Assembly (NCBI GenBank): GCA_963514005.1
Contig: OY740816.1
Location: forward strand, 22,630,001-22,694,000
From: Raja brachyura
Taxonomy: Eukaryota
Reading direction: 5' to 3'
DNA: 64,000 nt
Below the pieces are notes generated by a model. That model was given only the letters and a program-made list of their open reading frames with translations, had not been told where the DNA came from and did no database searches. This document shows, piece by piece, positions 4,126 to 32,230 of the stretch; within the stretch, counting starts at the first letter, position 1; each line of letters opens with the position of its first letter. The position numbers were made by a program, and so were the translations under genes.

Positions 4126-7009
4126 CTGTAGTACGGTCATAGAATTGACATGAATTGACAATACCGGTTCTGGTCCATTCTTAGTCATGTATGTGACCAA
4201 AAGGATGAAAAATTGTGGAATACATCTCTTCTAATTCTGGAAGCTTTACAGGTATGTTGTTTTCTGCTGCATATATGACTAATTTTTTTCGGTTTATCAT
4301 AAAAAAAATTTGCTGACAATATTTAGGGTAAGAGGTCAAATGTGACTGGTCACGTGTGACATCACACGGAAGCATTTTACAAACTGAATTTTAAAAAGCT
4401 GGAATGTTCATATATTTAGCTGACATGCATTGTAGTTCTGTAGGTAGGAAAAATAACAATGAATAAGATTAATCTCTTACAAGAACTTTTCGATGTATCA
4501 CTTTGTGATGACATATGGTAATGTGTGTGACAAATTTTGTTCACTTTCCAAAGAATGGGCCTTCTGGATTCCTCAGATTCTAATTACTGCCTTCCATATG
4601 CATGACTTGTCTTTCCAAGTTAGTCAAGAGTAGCATTGGTGGGGAATATGTGGCTATGGTAAATTAACATATAACAGTGAAAAAACAAGAAGCTTTGGCA
4701 TGAAAAATGTTGGGTTTTAGTAAGAGCCATGAGTATTGAAACCCGAGTTTATAATAAGGTTTTTGTGGGTTTTCATACAATATATTGCGAAATAAGCTGT
4801 ATTTTGAGCTTGCACTGAAAATCTGCTGTAATAAAGTGTTTTTGCTTCCACTTCCATTATGGGAATAATCTTTTGCTTTCTTAATTTCTATATTATGTAT
4901 TAAAATTTGTTTTACAGAGGAGTTGTGATCATTTATTAAATAGTATCTGAAACTGGTGGTGTTATATGCAACTTATGCACCCATGATTTTTCTGTCCCTT
5001 ACTCTTTTCACGTGCAGTTTGGACTGCATTTAGGCAACTGTAACTTCAGGAGGCTCTGGAAGAGCAAACATGGATTCTATAGTAAATAACTTTTAAAACT
5101 TCAGTTGCAAGAATAGCTGTGTATTATGACTTCCATGTGCAGATAATTGAATTCATTTTGACTCGTTTTCACAAACTGATGCTAGTTGGCAGCTATGTTG
5201 CGATGGAATCTTAGTTATCTCTCAGAAGAAGTCGGGAACGGATAGAATCAAATTTTTTGTTGAGGATTTTGAGATGTGATTGCAGATTATTTTTTTTGTG
5301 GAGTTTTGGTGAGAAACTCCTCAGGCTATTGTGATTAGCAGCAGGCTGGGATGCCCCCAACAAGCAGGCCCGGCTAGCCTGCCGCGGTCTCCGGACCTCG
5401 CCCTAAGGGACCTCGTCTGCGGGACCTTGCCAAAGGCTTGTTGGTCAGCGGGATCAGGAACTCACCCGAAGGCTTGGCAGACAGCGTAACCAGGATGAGC
5501 TGGTGAAGTCGGACGCGAAGAAGGTTGCACCGGGGTAATGCCTCCAGCATCTTCAGGAGGTGCCCCGGGACATAAAGATGGAGAGGAAAGGGACATCTGT
5601 TTGCGGGAACTGCTCCAGTGTATTGAGCGCGCGAGCAGTCTGGACTTTCGACTTTGAATAATGGTGACACCTGCATGTGTAATATGAAAAAAATAATTTC
5701 ACTGTGCAGTTGCATATGTGACAACTAAACCACTATTGACTATTCAACTAACCACATTAATAAAATTGAAATACCGGTATCTAATTCTGGCTTTGTGAGA
5801 TGTGGGTGGCTGGTTTGCACTGCTCTGCATTTGTCTATTTGTATCTGTTTAATTAACATTTCAAAGACTTATAATGTTAAACCATTTTTAATCACCTTTA
5901 TATGTGATTGGTTAGGTGCAGCTAAGTACTCCAAGCAGAGTGCACCGTTTCCTTTTATCCCCAGTTGAAATTGTTATAATTTTGCACAGGGTTGTGTAAT
6001 TTGTTGCATATTTACCTTGAGGCACATCAACCCCACTGCCATCTGACCTCTGTATTGGTCAGAGATGGCATTCAACATCTTTGAGAAACTGGCTGCACTA
6101 TTCTCTGGAATATATTATACTTATGATGCAAAGTTAATTTTGCCAGTTGCCACTGCAGCAATTAGCATCGGATTCTCAAGTAATTGTTCCATGTATAAGT
6201 GAAGCCAAGTGAAAATGGCACTACCCAACAGCGGAAGTCCTGGAAGCAACTGGCTCTGTTAAGTAGCAAGAACATACATTTTCCTGCTTTGTTCTTTTAG
6301 TTTACTGATAGTGCAAGTTGGAGTATGTTGTGAACCATTATTAAGTTCAACAATTGAGCGAATGTACGGGATACACAAATTAATTGAAAGAAAATGTTGG
6401 GCCAGTGATACATATACATCACCGAAGCTTGCATGTTTGATCCGCATCATAAGACAGCTAAGGAAGGTAAATAAAATAGTAAGTATATAAATTTATAATG
6501 CACATACTTTTTCTCCCAGATATGAGAGTCAAATAATAGTCAAATTCTTAATCATGGCAGTGTTCCATGTAATATAATAATTACAGATACACATGACATT
6601 CTGCAGCAAATGTGCTACATATAACATAATCCTTTGTAGTTACAACAGTGCTTGCTCTTTAGAAATATTCCATTCAGCATCAAAGGATAAAAAGGGGCTG
6701 TATATATACAAAGCTTTCTTTAGAGTTCTTGCATTCAATCATTTTGGATATGTATTCCTTTCGCCATTGGACTGCCACTGCATCTGAGTAGCACCGCCAT
6801 TAATTGGGGAATCAAATAGTGCTGGTATCTCCATAGCTTGAATTTACTAGTTTTACTGTACAGTTTTATCTAATTTATTGAAAAGGGGAAAGTCAACATA
6901 TTTATTGTTTATAGTTTTATTTAATAATAGTTAATGGCCTAAAGCAAGCTGTTCTTTAACATAATCCACAGTTCCTTAGTCCTACGTGTTCTGAACCAAT
7001 TAATAAAAG

Positions 7010-8636: not shown

Positions 8637-9145
8637 TTGGGCTGCAGCCACCCGACAACCAAAATTCATTTTGTGAACACAAACTCTTTAAAAAGACGAG
8701 GCAAACAATTGGGCTGCAGCCACCCGACAACCAAAATCCATTTTGTGAACACAAACTCTTTAAAAAGGAGAGGCAAACAATTGGGTTGCTGCCACCCGAC
8801 AACTAAAATTCATTTTGTTAACACAAACTCTTTTAAAAGGAGAGGCAAACAATTTTGCTGCAGCCACCCGCCAACCAAAATCCATTGTGTGAACACAAAC
8901 TCTTTAAAAAGGCGAGGCAAACAATTGGACTGCAGCCACCCGACAATCAAAATTCATTTTGTGAACACAACTCTTTAAAAAGGCGAGGCAAACAATTGGG
9001 CTGCAGCCACCCGACAACCAAAATCCATTTTGTGAACACAAACTCTTTAAAAAGGCGAGGCAAACAACTGGGCTGAGCCACCGACAACCAAAATCATTTT
9101 GTGAACACAAACTTTTTAAAAAGAAACAATTTGGCAGCAGCCAAT
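8637..9145. repeat. 72-bp tandem minisatellite, about 7 units, inside the Helitron
   Basis: Unit ttgggctgcagccacccgacaaccaaaatccattttgtgaacacaaactctttaaaaaggcgaggcaaacaa; units start at 8637, 8709, 8781 and onward. Confidence 0.95.
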
Positions 9146-9850: not shown

Positions 9851-9895
9851 TCAGAGCTGAACATATTGAAACAGATGGACCTCTTGAAATAGATT

Positions 9896-10224
9896 ATGCA
9901 TAACCCTATGCAGGAAGACACTGACTCAGACCAGGTGGGTAATCAGTGTGATGACAATCAGGACATTGATGAGGATGGCAATGATGGCGTTTCTGATGAG
10001 AAGGACAATTGCCGTTTTGTTCCCAACCCTGACCAGATCGATGCTGATGGTGACAACAGAGGAGACACGTGCAAGAACGACTTTGACAACAACATCCCAG
10101 ATATCTATGACATGTGCCCCGAGAACTGCGCCATCAGTGAAACTGACCTGAGGAAGTTCCAACGGGGACAATGCAGATCGTTCCTAACTGGGTAGTGCAC
10201 AACAAGGTCAGGGAGTTACCGCAG
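9896..10224 (+). pseudogene. Processed thrombospondin-1/2-type cDNA fragment (type 3 calcium repeats to the start of the C-terminal domain), internally deleted and frameshifted
   Basis: [87 protein letters not shown], then QIVPNWVV in another frame. Matches THBS1/2 CPEN..ISETDFR.FQ...DPNWVV with no introns. Confidence 0.88.
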
Positions 10225-10248
10225 TCTTACGTTTGTGCACGTCGAGTT

Positions 10249-10302
10249 GATTGCATTAGTCGAAACAGGGCGGACCACGTGAAGGTTGCAATCTTCCACC
10301 CC
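10249..10302 (-). ncRNA. Minimal HDV-like self-cleaving ribozyme (predicted)
   Basis: GGGGUGG aa GAUUGCA ACC UUCACGU GGU CCGCCCU GUUUCGA CUAA UGCAAUC: P1 7 bp with G1-U wobble, P2 7 bp perfect, P3 3 bp, 7-nt L3, J4/2 CUAA. Confidence 0.85.
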
Positions 10303-16498: not shown

Positions 16499-16693
16499 TT
16501 TGCTCAAGTAATGTATGCAACATAAAATTTATGTCATCCTGACAGAATGTAAATAGACTGATGGGGCCTGATATGAAGAAAAAGTGACAAATGAATATGC
16601 TGCATAATATCTGTTTGCAAATTGTAAGATTTAAGTCACACTTTAAAAATTAAAAATAAAGAACTAAGTGACATAGCAGTAGAGCTACTGCCT

Positions 16694-16745
16694 GGGGTTA
16701 AGGAAAGAGCGTTCACGTCGCGGCCCTGTTTTCACCAATCTTTCC
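16694..16745 (+). ncRNA. Minimal HDV-like self-cleaving ribozyme (predicted)
   Basis: GGGGUU aa GGAAAGA GCG UUCACGU CGC GGCCCU GUUUUCA CCAA UCUUUCC: P1 6 bp with G1-U, P2 7 bp perfect, P3 3 bp, same L3 as the 10249-10302 copy, J4/2 CCAA. Confidence 0.85.
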
Positions 16746-16862
16746 ACCACCACGTACAAGAAGCGCAAGACAGACACCATTGTATGCAGATGACGAGAAG
16801 TGTGTTCAACTCTGGCTGAACGACTTCTAATCTTGTGTGTGGACTCGATAAGAAGAAGAAGA
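16694..16862 (+). mobile_element. Short (169 bp) non-autonomous retroposon with a 5' HDV-like ribozyme and (AAG)n tail
   Basis: 11-bp TSD AGCTACTGCCT at 16683-16693 and 16863-16873. Tail aagaagaagaag. No tRNA A/B boxes. Confidence 0.85.
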
Positions 16863-19324
16863 AGCTACTGCCTTACAATGCCAAAGACCCAGGTTCGATC
16901 CTGACTGTATGGAGTTTGTACGTTCTCACAGTGACCTGCGGGATTTTCTCAGAGATCTTCAGATTCTTCCCGCTCTCCAAAGACGTACGGGTTTGTAGGT
17001 TAATTGGCTGGATATGAATGTATAAATGTAAAATTGTCACTAATGTGTGTAGGGTAGTGTTAATGCACGAGGACACTGGTCAGTGTGGACTCGGTGGGCC
17101 GAAGAGCCTGTTTCCATGCTGTATCTCCAAACTAAACTAAACACTTAACAACTGTTGACAAGAAACCATAACAGTGAAGGAATGATAACTCTTTAAAGTA
17201 TGTTAGTTGGTTACCATCACTTAAACATGAAATACTATTTCACTCCATTTTTTACGTTGTTTACTTAGCAATCACTCCAGCAGCTTTAAGCGGTTTGACT
17301 TTTCCAGAAACTGTAATAGTTTATTGCAGGACTAAAATTAGCTTTAATATAACTTGCATGGTGCAACGCCCAAACCACTTTCATTAACATGCTGTTTTTC
17401 AAAAATTGTGATAAAAATCAATCTTTGAATCTTAACATAAACTCATAGTCAACAACCCTATACCACAGCAATGTAAGAATTAGATTTTATATTTCCTCAG
17501 ACAAAATGAAAATGCAGTTGTGGGTATGCTTTGATATTAACAAGGTAAAGGATGTATGTTTGGGAGGCTGAAATGTTTTCTATTCTTTGCCTCAATTTCT
17601 TGATTCTAGGTCATCCACACGAATAGTCTAGTTTAGCATCTAATTTTATTATTACCACTCAGTTAAACACCTCTGGTCAGATAGAGCATAGGTACTGGGC
17701 AAAGACGGCTTTACTTAGCACCAGCACTATGTCTTAACCTCCAGTTTCAGAAGCGCACCCACATCCTTCAGTCCAACATTCCCATCTTCAACACAAATCA
17801 TCCTTTCAGATGTTTCTGGCTAGATATTGTGCTTAATTGTTTAATGCTAAAAAGTTAATTATGCCTTGTCTCGTTAAGTGGTAGAAAAGCACAGAACCAA
17901 ATGTTGAAACGCAGATGAAATAGGATGGGCGTTGGTTCATTTGGTGCAGAAGCAACCACAAAATCTATCTACTCTGCACTATAATTACTTGTATATGTAA
18001 TTCAAAGAAACTTCAAAACTTTCCAGTCAGCAGAGAGTGAAGAGTTGTACTATATATCAAAGATGATTCAAATTAGGATCCCAGGGATTAAATGAGTGAA
18101 TTAATTAGAATTATTAAACTAAATTATTTGCAGGGAATTGTTCAGTTACATTATGGACTCATAAGTTTGGCTTTTATGGAGACCTATCCTCAAAACTCAA
18201 GACTGTACATGTCTACTACCTTTGTGCTGCAGGAATTTTTAGATGCGAATAGTCAATGTGCATGACCCCTAATTATTTCTTAAGAGAATTGTAAAGCTTT
18301 GATCTGGCTGTGACTTTAATTGAAATATTCATCTCTTATTGCACCAGGCCCTACAACTGGCTTAGGAGTGTTAAATGATTGTAATATCTAACAACCATAT
18401 CACATCCTTTGTTATAGTCCAGTTACATCTAACTGTTTAGTTTTTTGATTGAGCTTTATTGATATTGTTCATTAGTAGTTCATAGGAACCACTAAGAAGA
18501 TGAATGGAAGATAAATAAACTTCTTGTTTATCTTGTACAAAAATACCGTCCATATTTCTGTAATCTTTCCCTTTGAAGATAGCACTAAAGAAATGTAGCT
18601 TGTGGATGCAGAAGAACACAAGACAATCGGAGTAGGAATAGGCTCTGGCTCATCAAACCTGCACTGCCATTTACAAGGATCATGATTGAGATATGGAGTT
18701 TACTTTATGGTTAATCTGCTCCAGGCTACAACTACTCTTCTGTACCTGTTCCCCATTGCCCTTGATTCTATTATCTTTCAAAGATAAACACTACCTCTAA
18801 TACATCCAATAACCCAGACTCCACAACCCCTGTATGTGAAAAGAAATTTCTACATACTGTAGCTCAATTTCAAATGCTCACCACCCCATTAGAACTGTGT
18901 CCCCTAATTTGAAACATTTCCGCGAGTTAAGTCATCTCAACATCTACCCTGGTTATGGCTTGGATAATATAACATAATCTGATAGTTTGGCAGGTACATC
19001 CTCTTCTCCAACTTGCAGATGCGATACCCAATAAGCATTCCACCAGAATAGCTTTGTACACATGTCACTTCTCCCCTAATACGATAGAACTTTATTTATC
19101 CCAGGAGGGAAATTGATCTGCCAATAGTCATTAAAACACAAATACGTGAAACATGAAATTTTCAAAACGCATGCGCGACATATCGTCGAACGCATTGCGA
19201 AGCGACAGGCAGGCGGAGCGTCGCTCCTCCAACATAAGTTTAAAAACGGCCCGCAGGTAAGTATTTACCATTCCCGAGGTCGTTGTCGGCTCTGTTAAGT
19301 ATTTTCCTTACAGAGCACACCAAG

Positions 19325-20567
19325 ATGGAATCGAGGACGAAGTCTAAACGCGCCGCTGCCAAACTAGCTGCCGAGGACCACGAAGCGGGCAGCCAGCAAC
19401 GGTCGAGATCTCCAGAGCTGCTGATTCAAACCGCATCCCCCGACTTCACACTGTTACAGCCCGCAGGTGCTCTTCGGACTGGCGGCAAAACCACCCCGGA
19501 GGTCGGGCAGGTCCGTTGACTCGGCTGGGTCCGGACTGGAGGACACCCCACTGGCGGGAAGCGACAGCGGTCGATTATCCCGCATGGAGCACATGGTGGA
19601 ACAGTTGCTCCAACGTGACCTGCTACAGCAGGGGTATGGTCACAGTGGGTCTCCTTGCAGACCCACGGCAGCACCCTTTACAGGGCTGCCAAATGTCTCA
19701 CCCTCTTCACAGGGGAGCATAAGGAGTCAGAACTGGGCTGACGCTGAAGAGGGGAGTGTAGCTGAAGAAACACCAATGCCAGGGGTGCCAGAAGAGGAGC
19801 TACAGGGCATGGTATCAAAATTTGCGATGCCTACCCAAAAAGGACTGCCGTTGTAGCCGAAGTTGGCAGCCAGTATAAACTACATGGCAACGAATCAACT
19901 TCAGGAACATGTCATTAATAACACCGCAGCCAAATACCTAGCTCCTGAGAATTATGTCTCCCTCAACGTGCCTGCAGTCAAGAACCCCATCTGGGGTAAC
20001 ATGAGCCCTGGCATCAGAAGCCAGGGAATAAAACTCCAAAAAATCCTAAAACTACTGGCTTCTGGGATTACGGCCATTGCCAGGTCAGTGGATGGAGTGG
20101 AGATGTCGGAAGAGCTACAGGATGCTGTGGCACTCCTCTGTAACACTCAGTTTGCGATCAACTGTTACAGAAAGAGCGTCATCCGACCTGCACTGAACCC
20201 CAAGTTCGCGGGGTTGTGCAGACCCAGCAGTGCACAGCCGCCTACACTACTATTCGAAGACAAACTGCCTAAGCAGGTAAATGACCTCAATGAAGAGGCA
20301 AAGGCAATAGGCATGATAAAAGTGCCGGCTGCCACCAAGTCCTCATACCTGCAGCGACAGCACCCCTATGCATCCACCAGCAGACCACGCTACCACAACG
20401 ACAGAACACCTGCTGGTGAAAGCTCGAAGGCCGTACAACCTGCCCAACGGTCTTTTTTAGACCATGCCCCAGCACGGCCTTCCTGGAAGATGCGCCACCC
20501 CCACACCACAGCGCCTCCACCTCCCAGGAAACAAGGACAGAGGAAACCAACGCAGCACCGCCGGTAA
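19325..20567 (+). pseudogene. DIRS gag-like ORF1 (frameshift and stop)
   Basis: ATG in Kozak context at 19325; ORF pieces 19283-19519, 19467-19856 and 19863-20567; position immediately before the RT. Confidence 0.7.
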
Positions 20568-20569
20568 CC

Positions 20570-22477
20570 ATGGAGGTAGGTGGGTCTGGTTGCCTCAGGA
20601 ACATTGCATGTTTAACTTTTTCACGGATTGGGGGACGGTTGCACTTGTTTCGGGATGCATGGAGTTCTATAACTTCTAATCCTTTCATACTGCGAAGTAT
20701 TCAGGGATACAAAATTGAATTTGGTCACAAGCTTTCCCTACCTGTTCAGCATGCACCTAATCGAAAGTTTGTACTTTCACAGAAAGAAAAGATAGAAGGT
20801 CATGCTGAACTCTTAAGACTACATACGAAAGGGGTCATTGAGAAAACCAAAAATGAATCTCATGAGTTTGTATCGAACATCTTTACCAAAAATAAAAAAG
20901 ACGGCGGATGCCGTATCATTATTGATTTGACACAACTGAATACTTTCGTGCAGTACGCCCACTTCAAAATGGAAACTTTTGTTACTACCAAACAACTAGT
21001 TTCCAAGAGGTACTTCAAGGCTTGCATCGATCTAAAAGATGCATACTATTCAGTACCAATAGAGAAAGGTCATCGCAGATATTTGAAATTTGCCTGGATG
21101 CGGCAGCTCTGGCAGTATAAAGCGCTGCCTAATGGATTAACATCAGCACCCAGACTGTTTACCAAATTATTGAAACCAGCTTTAGCGTGTCTCAGAAAAC
21201 AAAAACATATTGTTATGGCATACCTCAATGACATTTTTAATCGTGGGGAAAACCTTGGAGTTGGCCAAGTTGGCTGTCTCAGCCACTGAGCACTTATTTC
21301 AAAAACTGGGGTTTATCATCCGTCCAGACAAATCCACATTAATGCATTCTACCACTATGGACTATTTGGGATTCACGATTGACTTTGTTCATATGTCTGT
21401 CACTTTGCCACTGAACAAAGCGTCAGACTTGATAGAAGCATGTAACAGCCTTGCTGGCATCAGTAAATCATCTATTCAGCAAGTAGCCAGGGTAATTGGG
21501 AAGCTTGTGGCTGCCTTTCCAGCCACACAATTTGGGCTCTTGCATTACCAAAACCTACAAAGAGCAAAAATTGCAGCAGTCAAACACCATGCTGGCCATT
21601 TTGACAGGCCAACGCAATTACCAGCAAAAGCAAAATTGGAATTACAATGGTGGATAGACAATGCTCGACATTGCTCTAATCCCATTACAATCACAAACCC
21701 CTCAGTTATATTACAAACTGACGCCAGCGCTCAAGGCTGTGGAGCAACTAATACCACCTCCAGTTGCGGTGGTAGATGGAATGTACATGAATTAACCTTA
21801 CTCCCGGCACTGGGAATTAATCATCTAGAAATGCTGGGAGCATTTCATGGACTCCGGGCTTACTGTTCGGACATGCACCATCTGCATGTACGCCTACAAA
21901 TTGATAATACCACTGTGGTGGCTTACATCAATCATATGGGTGGAATTAAGTCGATATCTTGTAATGAATTGGTCAATACAATCTGGCTCTGGTGCTTAGA
22001 AAGGAACATTTGGATATCAGCCACTTACCTTCCGGGTAAACGCAGGTTTAATGACAACACCGAATGGATGTTGGACCATAAAGTGTTTGCCGATATCGTA
22101 GCTCGGTATGGAACACCAGATATCGACCTTTTGCATCCAGACTCAATCACCAAATACCAACATATGTTCCATGGGAACCAGACCCTGGGGCAGTAGCGAT
22201 GGACACTTTCTCGCTACACTGGGGGGATTTGTTTTTCTATGCATTTCCCCCCTTCTGCCTCATCAGTCGGGTCTTGCAGAAAATTCATCAAGACTCCACA
22301 TCGGGTATTCTGGTTGTACACGGCTGGCCTACTCGGCCATGGTTCCCTGTGGTACGGGACATGGCCTCAGAACCATGCATTCCAATACCCAAACGTCCGG
22401 GTTTACTGGTACATCCTGTGACAGGGGAGAGTCACCCGTGCCATGACCGGATTAACCTATTGGTTTGCAGGGTTTGA
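20570..22477 (+). pseudogene. DIRS RT / RNase H / adenine-methyltransferase-like ORF (frameshifted)
   Basis: GGRL..F...W, KKDGGCRIIIDL, HFKMET, IDLKDAYYSVP, LPNGLTSAPRLFTK, YLND (YLDD), TDAS, INHLEM, DNTTVVAYINHMGG, YAFPPF. Confidence 0.92.
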
Positions 22478-23457
22478 AAAGGCCACTCCTGGAATTTGGA
22501 CTTTCGGACCGAACAATGAATATCATCACGGCATCGTGCAGGGAGTCCACCAGGAAACAATACCTCACTTACGTCAAGAACTGGGAGGTGTTTTGTACCA
22601 AGACAAACACCACATAGGACACAGCCACCATTACGGAAGTGCTGGAGTTCCTGGCGAGCCTTCATTTTGATTAAGGTTTAAGCTACAGTGCCATCAACTG
22701 TGCCAGGAGTGCCCTATCCTCATATCTCGGACTAGGTTTATATCATCTTGCAGTTGGGTCTCACCCCTTGGTGTCTAAACTTATGACGGGTATTTTCAAC
22801 TCAAATCCCCCCAGGCATAGATATTCCCAGACCTGGGATATTGGCATTGTGTTAACCATGCCCCGAGGGTGGGCACCAGTAACGTCTCTTTCCTTAGCCA
22901 AATTGACATATAAAATGGTAATGCTGATGGCACTTGTGACGGCGCAACGGGTCCAGTCCCTACACAAGCTAAGTATGGACGCCGTGGTTATAACCAACAA
23001 TAAGGTAACTTTCTTCATTCAGGGGTTACTCAAACAAAACAGACCTGGATCATCTGGCCGCAAGTTGGATTTCCTGGCTTACCCCACAGACAGCCGCCTA
23101 TGCATAGCGACCCACCTTTTACACTACCTGGAGGTCACCAAGTGTCCCAGGGGCACGGAAAGGACTCTGCTTATAAGTCACAAACGTCCTCATCACAGAG
23201 TCACCGTGCAAACTATTTCAAGATGGCTTAGGGTGGTATTGGGTGCAGCGGGGGTGGACACTGATGTTTTTAAATCTCACTCCACCAGGACTGCATCTAC
23301 ATCGGCGGCAAGGATGATGGAAGTTCCTATGGACCACATCTTTGCAACGGCGGGTTGGTCTAATGAGAAAACCTTTCAGCGGTTCTATTATTATTGTTAT
23401 TTGTTAAATAAATACCCTCTTGTTTTTCAGCACAGTTTCATGTCTGAAATATGTTAA
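22478..23457 (+). pseudogene. DIRS tyrosine recombinase ORF (premature stop near 22672)
   Basis: LVTAQR, TISRWL, HSTR, AGWS...FQRFY catalytic motifs. Confidence 0.9.
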
Positions 23458-30872: not shown

Positions 30873-31997
30873 TCAGACCAGCGAGATCCTGGTGGGAGAC
30901 TGCGGTCCGTTACCGGAGCTGAGGGTGGTGTGGAGTAGCTCGTTTCTGTGCATGGAGGACCTGTCCTGCTGCGTGCTGCTACACTCGGAGATGATCACCC
31001 CGCAACAGCGAGGCTGCTCCCCGACTTTGGTCAGGCATAGCAAGCGCACAATGGTCTGGCGCATGTCCCTGTTGGTCAGGGTGTAAATGACGGGATTCAA
31101 GGCGGAATTGGACATGGCCAGTCCTAGGCAATAATCGGCCATGTTACTAACCCAATCGCTCCTCGTCGTTGAGGCGACGTCCAGTAGCAGCACGATAAAG
31201 AGCGGTAGCCAGCAGCCGATAAAAGTACCGACCACGATGGTGAGAGTCTTCAGCAACGCCTGAGATTTCTGGCACTTCTTGGACATGGTCGTTCTGGAAG
31301 TGCCTATGGGGAGGCTGTTAGTCTTGACCTTAAGGTAGATGCGGACGTACAGTATCACGATGGCACATAGGACAAAGATAAAGATCAGGATGCACACCAG
31401 GATGTATTTCTTAGAGTACAGCGGCATCATGGTGGAGCAAACGCGCAGGTTCCCAATGCAGTTCCAGCCCAAGATTGGGAGGCTCCCGAGGAAGAGCGAG
31501 AAGATCCAGTCGGCGCCCACAAAGAGCCGAGTGCGCCACTTCTTGTCCGTGCTGTGCAGTTGCATCCTCACCATCGTGACATGCCTCTCCACCGCGATGG
31601 CCAACAGGCTGAAGACCGAAGCGGTGAGTGTGATGAAAACGCCGCCCTCCCTCAGGAACCACCACAGCGGCGTTAGCTTCACCGTGTTGGCACCGGACAG
31701 CAGGATGTTGATCAAGTAAGCCACCCCCGCCAGCAAGTCGGACATGGTCAGGTTGGCGAGCAAGTCAAACATGGGCGTGTGGAACTTGCTGTTCTTCCGG
31801 ATGGCGATGAAGACCAGCAGGTTCTCCAAGATTATAAACACACAGACGATCAAAAATATCACCGCGTGGACCCTCAGACCTGCTTTGTACCTGCCGGGGG
31901 TCAGCTTCCCGGTGAAATTATAATGCAGGCTCACAGTCTCATTGTTGTAATAGTCCCCGAAGTTCAGTCTCAATCTTTCACCCAACCCCACGTTCAT
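30873..31997 (-). CDS. S1PR5: Sphingosine-1-phosphate receptor, S1PR5-like (class A GPCR), 374 aa, single coding exon
   Basis: LHYNFTGKL, LENL, LSDLLAG-like, WFLREGGVF (R3.28/E3.29; REGGVF is typical of S1P5), ERH, CWLP, NPVIY; seven hydrophobic segments; good Kozak context. SPC24 and S1PR5 both lie in the human 19p13.2 region. Confidence 0.9.
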   Translation of the reverse strand: MNVGLGERLRLNFGDYYNNETVSLHYNFTGKLTPGRYKAGLRVHAVIFLIVCVFIILENLLVFIAIRKNSKFHTPMFDLLANLTMSDLLAGVAYLINILLSGANTVKLTPLWWFLREGGVFITLTASVFSLLAIAVERHVTMVRMQLHSTDKKWRTRLFVGADWIFSLFLGSLPILGWNCIGNLRVCSTMMPLYSKKYILVCILIFIFVLCAIVILYVRIYLKVKTNSLPIGTSRTTMSKKCQKSQALLKTLTIVVGTFIGCWLPLFIVLLLDVASTTRSDWVSNMADYCLGLAMSNSALNPVIYTLTNRDMRQTIVRLLCLTKVGEQPRCCGVIISECSSTQQDRSSMHRNELLHTTLSSGNGPQSPTRISLV

Positions 31998-32230
31998 CCT
32001 CCCCGGTCTTTGTGACCGATGTTCCCCTCTAGCCTTTTTTTTAAATCGCTGCCCAGCTCGGTATCGGCGAGAAATTAATGCATGAAGTCGACGTTGGCAA
32101 TTCAGTGGCTGCCGCCTAGCAAGTCGATATCACAGTTTTGTAATCAATTAAGTTCTGGGAGAGAGACTGGCGTGACAGAAGCTCCGGTTAGGATCCAAAC
32201 AAGGCGAAGGATTCGCAGCCAGCCGGGAGA

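What the first reader, a model, noticed from the sequence alone, without database searches (positions are those of the whole stretch)
16694..16862. Ribozyme-headed SINE-like element: a 169-bp retroposon whose first base is G1 of a minimal HDV-like ribozyme
Seen: the element lies between 11-bp TSDs (AGCTACTGCCT), ends in (AAG)n and has no tRNA, 5S or 7SL head. Its first 52 nt fold into the HDV nested double pseudoknot: P1 GGGGUU/GGCCCU (G1-U wobble), P2 GGAAAGA/UCUUUCC, P3 GCG/CGC, L3 UUCACGU, an almost absent P4 (GUUUUCA) and J4/2 CCAA with the catalytic-position C. The predicted cleavage site is exactly the TSD boundary. Established: HDV-like ribozymes process the 5' ends of R2, RTE and Ingi/L1Tc-type retrotransposons. 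Inference: a promoter-less element that cuts itself out of host or read-through transcripts and is copied by a partner LINE. The 3' part reads DDEKCVQLWLNDF*, possibly the end of the partner ORF (Ingi/Vingi or RTE clade). I am not aware of this being described in cartilaginous fish.
Basis: partly seen in the sequence, partly recalled or inferred. Interest (0 to 1): 0.92.

Follow-up and report, generated by a model that had tools for sequence, protein, structure and literature searches.

The report
Ribozyme-headed mini-retroposon of skate Vingi elements
This 169-base repeat is a shrunken copy of a larger jumping gene whose front end folds like a very small self-cutting RNA, and front ends of this type closely resemble the self-cutting RNA in the mammalian CPEB3 gene.

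Summary
The element is one of about 3,400 copies in a skate genome (22-mer counts: head 3,378, tail 3,464; controls 0). It is not a classical SINE. It is an internally deleted Vingi-type LINE: nt 1-95 match the 5' end and nt 92-164 the 3' end of a decayed LINE found on another contig.

The HDV-like double pseudoknot is supported by compensatory changes in P1, P2, P3 and P1.1 across separate families. One of these is a second P4-less family (about 20,000 heads) with a copy in this same window. Target-site duplications end at G1.

Cleavage is not shown. The 6-bp P1 and 2-nt J1/2 are atypical, copies drift neutrally, and 'promoter-less' is untested.

The kind is known (NARTc/RIME, R2 SIDEs, Vingi deletion derivatives). 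Two things were not found in nine literature searches. One is P4-less HDV-like motifs in bulk in a vertebrate. The other is that Vingi 5' ends are CPEB3-type ribozymes: the gharial Vingi-2_Gav head matches the Rfam CPEB3 consensus at 52 of 54 positions, suggesting the mammalian CPEB3 ribozyme is an exapted Vingi head. Three key papers and Dfam/Repbase could not be checked.

The parts
16683..16693 (+). 5' target-site duplication (11 bp)
   Evidence: identical to 16863-16873
16694..16745 (+). P4-less HDV-like ribozyme motif: P1 16694-16699/16722-16727, J1/2 16700-16701, P2 16702-16708/16739-16745, P3 16709-16711/16719-16721, L3 16712-16718, P1.1 C16714-G16728 (+U16713.U16729), J4/2 16735-16738 with catalytic-position C16735
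   Evidence: covariation across families; activity inferred
16694..16788 (+). 5' part, from the 5' UTR of the partner LINE, ending just after an ATG (16784-16786) that is probably the LINE start codon (inferred)
   Evidence: 79/97 identical to L091:4328-4424
16785..16857 (+). 3' part, from the LINE 3' end: last 13 codons and stop (16789-16830), 19-nt 3' UTR (16831-16849), start of tail
   Evidence: 64/74 identical to L091:6790-6863; LINE frame there ends ...EDAEKCVQLRLNNI*
16850..16862 (+). (AAG)n tail
   Evidence: same tail on partner and on several relatives
16863..16873 (+). 3' target-site duplication
16670..17143 (+). host tRNA-type SINE into whose head the element inserted (limits approximate)
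   Evidence: loose-end consensus of a tRNA-like head at 16868 in all 4 runs, and empty-site joints 16692/16693 to 16880-16888 in DNA contigs
10225..10302 (-). 3'-cut copy of a second, separate P4-less ribozyme-headed family (family B); motif at 10302-10249

Best explanation
A bipartite non-autonomous (SIDE-type) derivative of a Vingi LINE. (1) Shown: it consists of the LINE's first ~95 nt joined to its last ~75 nt over a 4-nt overlap, and it spread to about 3,400 sites with 11-12-bp TSDs and an (AAG)n tail. (2) Shown by comparison: its first 52 nt have the HDV nested double pseudoknot without P4, and the LINE already had this head. (3) Inferred: a copy transcribed inside a host or read-through RNA (or from an internal promoter) cleaves itself 5' of G1, leaving a compact RNA with a defined, structured 5' end. 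(4) Inferred from known target-primed reverse transcription: the Vingi APE-RT protein binds the LINE-derived 3' end, nicks DNA 11-12 bp apart with a preference for T at the TSD 3' edge, primes on the tail and copies to G1, so nearly all copies are full length and none carries a shared upstream flank. The family is probably extinct now: copies are 3-6% from consensus and every partner copy examined is broken.
For: Partner: (81% and 86% matches 2.4 kb apart in L091); RT domain PF00078; APE remnant in L093, residues 160-291 of homolog P0006 at 64%; full-length homologs of ~990 aa carry APE+RT and no RNase H. 5' ends: 26 of 29 copies chosen on the 3' 66 nt alone reach G1 or within 3 nt of it (by eye); head/tail counts 3,378/3,464; a TSD ending exactly at -1 in 31 of 51 copies versus 0 of 51 in a shifted control; depth starts at ~16694 in 4 of 4 runs, and loose 5' flanks in the DNA-type run share no consensus (agreement 0.37). 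Covariation: P3 GCG/CGC, ACC/GGU, GCC/GGC; P2 differs among the heads yet stays paired in all 9 rows; P1.1 UC/GU (A, B), CC/GG (L158, L111), GC/GC (L102), CU/AG (L109). Rfam CPEB3 model: L111 55.6 bits and L102 43.3 bits, above gathering. The named Vingi-2_Gav 5' end has the same P3-L3 core. A U:U second pair in P1.1 is compatible with fast cleavage (PMC13635239 passages); P4-less ribozymes cleave in vitro (PMC10879173 passages).
Against: No cleavage data. P1 is 6 bp; the design descriptor uses 7 bp and a CRRA J4/2, whereas this one is CCAA. In Agam-2-1 a 1-nt J1/2 gave little activity and longer linkers more; ours is 2 nt. No purifying selection within the family: non-CpG substitutions are 116/2328 in the head versus 186/5481 elsewhere, and only 3 of the 29 3'-chosen copies still match my mismatch-free descriptor. 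The window head is below Rfam gathering. The RNA run showed no place where many molecules begin (a poly(A) library read at about 6%, a weak test). A short 169-nt RNA would show little 5' truncation anyway. No intact partner ORF was found, and L091 has lost its APE region. L104/L100 need a bulged P1, and my script's P1 setting for L105 and L104 was wrong, so they are not counted as clean P1 support.
Confidence: 0.78

Rival explanations
1. Same origin (Vingi internal deletion), but the shrunken head is a slow or dead ribozyme. The precise 5' end comes from an internal Pol II promoter starting at G1, as Pr77 does in L1Tc/NARTc, and the fold serves RNA stability or protein binding.
For: 6-bp P1, 2-nt J1/2, no P4; the L1Tc head doubles as a promoter; Kojima expects bipartite LINEs to be Pol II transcripts; no start pile-up in RNA.
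Against: The catalytic-position C, the J4/2 A and the L3 U/C/G are kept while stems are replaced in separate families, which points to selection on chemistry. Two different P4-less heads each spread to thousands of copies. The two readings are not exclusive.
Confidence: 0.17
2. The partner belongs to another APE clade (Ingi proper or RTE) rather than Vingi.
For: No tree with named references was built; RTE and Ingi also make bipartite elements and carry HDV-like heads.
Against: No RNase H in any of 81 homologs, and Vingi differs from Ingi by lacking it; several full-length relatives fill contigs of ~3.1-3.3 kb like Vingi-2_Gav's 3,128 bp; the head core matches a named Vingi 5' end.
Confidence: 0.04
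3. An ordinary Pol III SINE or a chance fold.
For: MFE z-score unremarkable; no gathering-level Rfam hit.
Against: No tRNA, 5S or 7SL similarity; the head is the LINE's own 5' end; 0 strict descriptor hits in 19.2 Mb of shuffles; four-helix covariation.
Confidence: 0.01

Closest known systems
NARTc / RIME / SIDER (non-autonomous L1Tc/ingi derivatives of trypanosomatids)
   Same: 5' and 3' ends of an Ingi-group LINE joined; HDV-like ribozyme as the extreme 5' end, cleaving before +1 (PMC4035085 passages)
   Different: Vertebrate host; Vingi rather than Ingi partner; 52-nt motif without P4 versus 77-96-nt motifs with P4; activity and promoter function not shown here
R2 SIDEs of Drosophila (Eickbush and Eickbush 2012, PMC3414825)
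   Same: 5' ribozyme plus 3' recognition end left by internal deletion, mobilised in trans (abstract)
   Different: Not rDNA site-specific; APE-type partner; thousands of dispersed copies
Vingi-1_EE non-autonomous derivatives (hedgehog) and Vingi-derived SINE2-1_ACar / SINE2-1_AMi
   Same: Same LINE clade and internal-deletion origin (PMC5786205 passages)
   Different: [quoted passage not shown]
Mammalian CPEB3 ribozyme (Rfam RF00622)
   Same: 19 contiguous identical nt (16708-16726), same L3, single G-C plus U.U in P1.1; relatives' heads pass the family threshold
   Different: CPEB3 has a 7-bp P1 and a P4 stem and is a single conserved intronic locus (established knowledge)
Minimal HDV-like ribozymes (drz-Mtgn-1, theta ribozymes)
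   Same: No P4; catalytic C first in J4/2 (PMC10879173 passages)
   Different: Those are ~99% phage-borne and tRNA-linked, and that study reports hits only in phages plus 12 in bacteria although it also searched human, mouse and protist genomes; here the motif heads retroposons in a vertebrate

Membership tests
HDV-like ribozymes | Nested double pseudoknot P1, P2, P3, P1.1 | tested here: met
   descriptor plus covariation across families; shuffle null
HDV-like ribozymes | G1 paired with a pyrimidine at the cleavage site | tested here: met
   G16694-U16727; G in 50 of 51 rows with a letter at position 1
HDV-like ribozymes | L3 with conserved U..CG (reverse wobble) and catalytic C in J4/2 followed by A before P2 | tested here: met
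   L3 UUCACGU, J4/2 CCAA; C in 55 of 57 rows, 2 gaps; features
HDV-like ribozymes | 7-bp P1 and a P4 stem (standard form) | tested here: not met
   6-bp P1, no P4; family B has a 7-bp P1 and no P4; P4-less forms are a known active subclass
HDV-like ribozymes | Mg2+-dependent self-scission 5' of G1, lost with C-to-U | not testable with these tools
   RNA lay inconclusive
Rfam CPEB3_ribozyme RF00622 | Score at or above gathering (35 bits) | tested here: not met
   24.9 bits; relatives L111 and L102 do pass
Bipartite non-autonomous LINE (SIDE) | Only the 5' and 3' ends of one autonomous LINE | tested here: met
Bipartite non-autonomous LINE (SIDE) | Own amplification with a fixed junction, TSDs and the partner's tail | tested here: met
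Bipartite non-autonomous LINE (SIDE) | Mobilisation in trans by the partner protein | not testable with these tools
   inferred from the shared 3' end
Vingi clade (partner) | Single ORF with APE + RT | tested here: inconclusive
   RT in L091, APE remnant in L093, intact only in homologs; no intact copy of this family seen
Vingi clade (partner) | No RNase H domain | tested here: met
   none in 81 homologs' Pfam lists or in L091's six longest frames; P0006 maps across L091 to the stop
Vingi clade (partner) | 5' end like named Vingi elements | tested here: met
   by-eye comparison with Vingi-2_Gav nt 2-74 in the supplement of PMC5786205
Vingi clade (partner) | RT phylogeny as sister of Ingi | not tested
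   no named reference proteins were available
Classical SINE | tRNA/5S/7SL-derived head with Pol III promoter | tested here: not met

The most novel reading that the evidence does not exclude
Vingi retrotransposons as a clade are headed by CPEB3-type ribozymes. Skates carry over 23,000 P4-less versions in at least two separately amplified mini-retroposon families, giving minimal HDV-like ribozymes a biological role in a vertebrate. The mammalian CPEB3 ribozyme, whose origin the papers I could read do not address, is the exapted 5' end of an amniote Vingi element or Vingi-derived SINE.
Probability: 0.6. Interest if true: 0.82.

Novelty: new variant of a known kind. Interest (0 to 1): 0.64.

Why it matters
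The architecture has precedent, so the element alone is a modest addition. Three points raise it. First, minimal (P4-less) HDV-like ribozymes were described as almost entirely phage-borne and of unclear function; here two families of them head retroposons with thousands of copies each in a vertebrate, a natural mutational series for a 52-54-nt catalytic RNA. Second, the comparison ties Vingi 5' ends to the mammalian CPEB3 ribozyme and makes its origin directly testable. Third, Vingi proteins and UTRs are being developed as gene-insertion tools (PMC13708176 passages); a 135-170-nt natural template shows the minimal cis-acting ends, and suggests the 5' UTR processes itself.

Tried and rejected
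MFE folding: uninformative for a pseudoknot. Rfam at gathering level: 0 hits in the window. Within-family covariation or conservation: no signal, neutral drift. DNA searches with the element or its 3' 66 nt returned only short copies; the partner came from a pattern excluding the short element's upstream letters (2 of 30 matches were LINE 3' ends, the rest short copies with indels or 5' cuts). One search was swamped by an unrelated 140-bp insert in L065. Viral contigs: 70 pattern matches, none a relative. Earlier findings: nothing. Sequencing runs: no RNA holder listed; the lay gave no start or end pile-up, and the excess of + first mates over - on the element rests on few reads, so I draw nothing from it. 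The apparent CA before G1 in family B (13 of 13) is a selection artefact of my query; four copies taken without that bias have C, C, C, T at -1. The three 3' ends of other Vingi-type copies that I fetched (L160-L162) did not match family B beyond a short tail-like motif, so its partner is not identified. L103, L106, L098 and L114 have different 5' ends that neither my descriptor nor Rfam matched. Not held: Kojima 2011, Ruminski 2011, Webb 2009; these and their supplements may already show a Vingi or fish example. No Dfam/Repbase search was available, so the families may already have names. The whole genome could not be scanned with the descriptor.

Full report
1. Observation. The 169-bp element lies at 16694-16862 between identical 11-bp duplications and ends in (AAG)n. 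It is single in the window but a large family in the 2.7-Gb genome: 2,848 candidates, with the 40 scored at 91-100% identity. Exact counts with 22-mers and up to 2 mismatches gave 3,378 heads and 3,464 3' cores, with reversed controls at 0. A receptor gene in the window is 95% identical to a little-skate protein and 74-82% to those of rays and sharks, so the host is a skate. The copy sits in the tRNA-type head of another SINE, and DNA contigs show joints that skip it.

2. Ends. Of 29 other copies chosen only on the 3' 66 nt, 26 reach G1 or within 3 nt of it, some with internal deletions; 3 are 5'-cut (L043, L053, L054); none shares sequence upstream except where two sit in the same host repeat (by eye). 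Among 51 copies reaching the head, 31 have a duplication ending exactly at -1 (24 of them 11-12 bp) against 0 in a control shifted 60 nt; T stands at -1 in 34 of 51 (background 0.28, p about 1e-8). Thirty of those 51 were chosen as full-length hits, so that tally tests the position of the TSD, not the truncation rate. Mean distance from consensus is 3.3% (30 best hits) and 5.6% (27 3'-chosen copies).

3. Partner. A pattern that excluded the short element's upstream letters gave 30 matches, 2 of which were LINE 3' ends. Around L065, locus L091 holds a 2.5-kb decayed LINE that begins with the same head and ends with the same tail: element nt 1-95 match L091:4328-4424 (79/97) and nt 92-164 match 6790-6863 (64/74), overlapping by 4 nt. 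The RT stretch hits PF00078 and 81 database proteins; the full-length ones are about 900-1,000 aa with APE and RT domains and no RNase H, the named ones from teleosts and invertebrates. L091's endonuclease region is replaced by an insertion, but L093 keeps APE residues 160-291. Other copies are 74-96% identical fragments; no intact one was seen. The LINE's own head lacks P4, so the loss predates the short element.

4. Fold. A descriptor found two motifs in the window, against 0.04 relaxed and 0 strict per shuffled window. The second, at 10302-10249 on the minus strand, belongs to family B: about 135 nt, 20,030 head matches (control 1), best 40 hits 98-100% identical, with TSDs ending at -1 in 4 of 4 full copies examined. 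It has the same L3 and the same 11-nt P4-less linker length, but different letters in P1, P2 and P3, all paired. A third head (L158), about 140 nt upstream of the ATG of another Vingi-type family in this genome, has a long P4. Among 50 metagenome loci of relatives I examined the 5' regions of 20. L102, L105, L109, L111 (with near-duplicates L112, L113) and L100/L104 have recognisable heads; L099, L101, L116, L117, L119 and L120 have cut or deleted ones; the rest have other or missing 5' ends. P3 varies as GCG/CGC, ACC/GGU, GCC/GGC, and the pseudoknot P1.1 as UC/GU, CC/GG, GC/GC, CU/AG. The segmentation was fitted to the model, but P1.1 was not used to choose these heads except for the G after P1 required by the descriptor. 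Rfam's CPEB3 model scores L111 at 55.6 bits and L102 at 43.3 (gathering 35), L104 31, L100 30.5, the window head 24.9 and L158 24.1; L109 scores 39.9 on HDV-F-prausnitzii (gathering 44).

5. Against activity. P1 is 6 bp and J1/2 is 2 nt; J4/2 is CCAA rather than CRRA. This copy has lost the C6-G pair. Substitutions are not rarer in the head than elsewhere, and only 3 of 29 3'-chosen copies still fit the mismatch-free descriptor. In one poly(A) RNA run (about 6% read; organism coded; most reads under 95% alike) the family appears on both strands, 98% of laid reads run on into unlike sequence, and no start pile-up was found. This fits passive transcription inside host RNAs and does not test cleavage.

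6. Mechanism. See Best explanation. Structure, origin and end precision are shown; self-cleavage, mode of transcription and trans-mobilisation are inferred from R2, L1Tc and RTE precedent.

7. What is known. [quoted passage not shown] R2 SIDEs (PMC3414825, abstract) and NARTc/SIDER ribozymes (PMC4035085, passages) are direct precedents. A review says some LINEs and SINEs of diverse metazoans use such ribozymes (PMC6765202, passages), and lamprey examples are known (PMC8256844, PMC13635239; passages). So the kind is known. The theta-ribozyme paper (PMC10879173, passages) places about 99% of P4-less motifs in phages. Other papers seen: PMC13708176, PMC7761336, PMC5753468, PMC10919898, PMC6326823, PMC3277949 (passages) and PMC4908430 (first quarter of the text).

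8. The CPEB3 link. The supplement of PMC5786205 prints nt 2-74 of gharial Vingi-2_Gav. Compared by eye with the Rfam consensus printed, it agrees at 38 of 40 positions up to the base of P4 and 14 of 14 after it. The alligator SINE2-1_AMi printed beside it also shares the 7-bp P4 stem. That paper never names CPEB3, and a study of ancestral CPEB3 ribozymes has no hit for 'origin', 'retrotranspos' or 'transpos' (PMC8233481, term search only). PMC7761336 suggests in general terms that conserved vertebrate ribozymes were domesticated. Identity in P1, P2 and P4, which vary freely among other heads, argues for descent rather than convergence, but I could not examine the mammalian locus.

9. Novelty. 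Nine searches showed no paper on a Vingi ribozyme, on such elements in cartilaginous fish, or on a Vingi origin of CPEB3. Only the top 20-25 were listed for the broad searches, and only 6 papers hold both 'Vingi' and 'ribozyme'. Kojima 2011, Ruminski 2011 and Webb 2009 were not held, and patents, Dfam and Repbase were not searchable, so priority is uncertain.

Noticed in passing
window 10225-10302 (-); L049, L145-L156, L163-L165: Second P4-less ribozyme-headed retroposon family (B), about 135 nt, about 20,000 heads, best hits less diverged than family A's; the window copy is cut after nt 78. Partner not identified; -1 base was C in 3 of 4 unbiased copies, unlike family A's T.
   Followed up: partly
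PMC5786205 supplement versus RF00622: The 5' end of Vingi-2_Gav and the body of SINE2-1_AMi are near-identical to the mammalian CPEB3 ribozyme consensus.
   Followed up: partly
L158:77-170; G000 C8, C14, C3, C4 hits: At least one further, less decayed Vingi-type family in this genome (about 50% identity to P0006), with a long-P4 HDV-like head whose P1 and P1.1 are fully Watson-Crick.
   Followed up: partly
L100 and L104, 5' ends: Heads in which a hairpin appears to interrupt the 5' strand of P1, an unusual topology.
   Followed up: no
L103, L106, L098, L114, 5' regions: Relatives with the same protein type but different structured 5' UTRs that match neither my descriptor nor Rfam; possibly swapped ribozyme modules.
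   Followed up: no
G000:C1:14.79-14.95 Mb: Cluster of family B heads in inverted pairs 1.4-1.6 kb apart, repeated many times, probably a segmental array.
   Followed up: no
window 30873-32129 (-): Intact sphingosine-1-phosphate receptor gene (S1PR1-like/S1PR5a), used to place the host.
   Followed up: yes
window 19348-23457 (+): Decayed DIRS-type element: gag-like, RT/RNase H and tyrosine-recombinase frames (family label from recall of motifs).
   Followed up: no
window about 9870-10224: Sequence next to the cut family B copy reads on the + strand like thrombospondin type-3 repeats with stops, possibly a processed pseudogene fragment (by eye; label recalled).
   Followed up: no
window 8637-9143: 72-bp tandem repeat array.
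   Followed up: no
family A target sites: TSDs tend to start with A and end with T, suggesting both nicks leave a 3' T; a symmetric endonuclease preference.
   Followed up: partly
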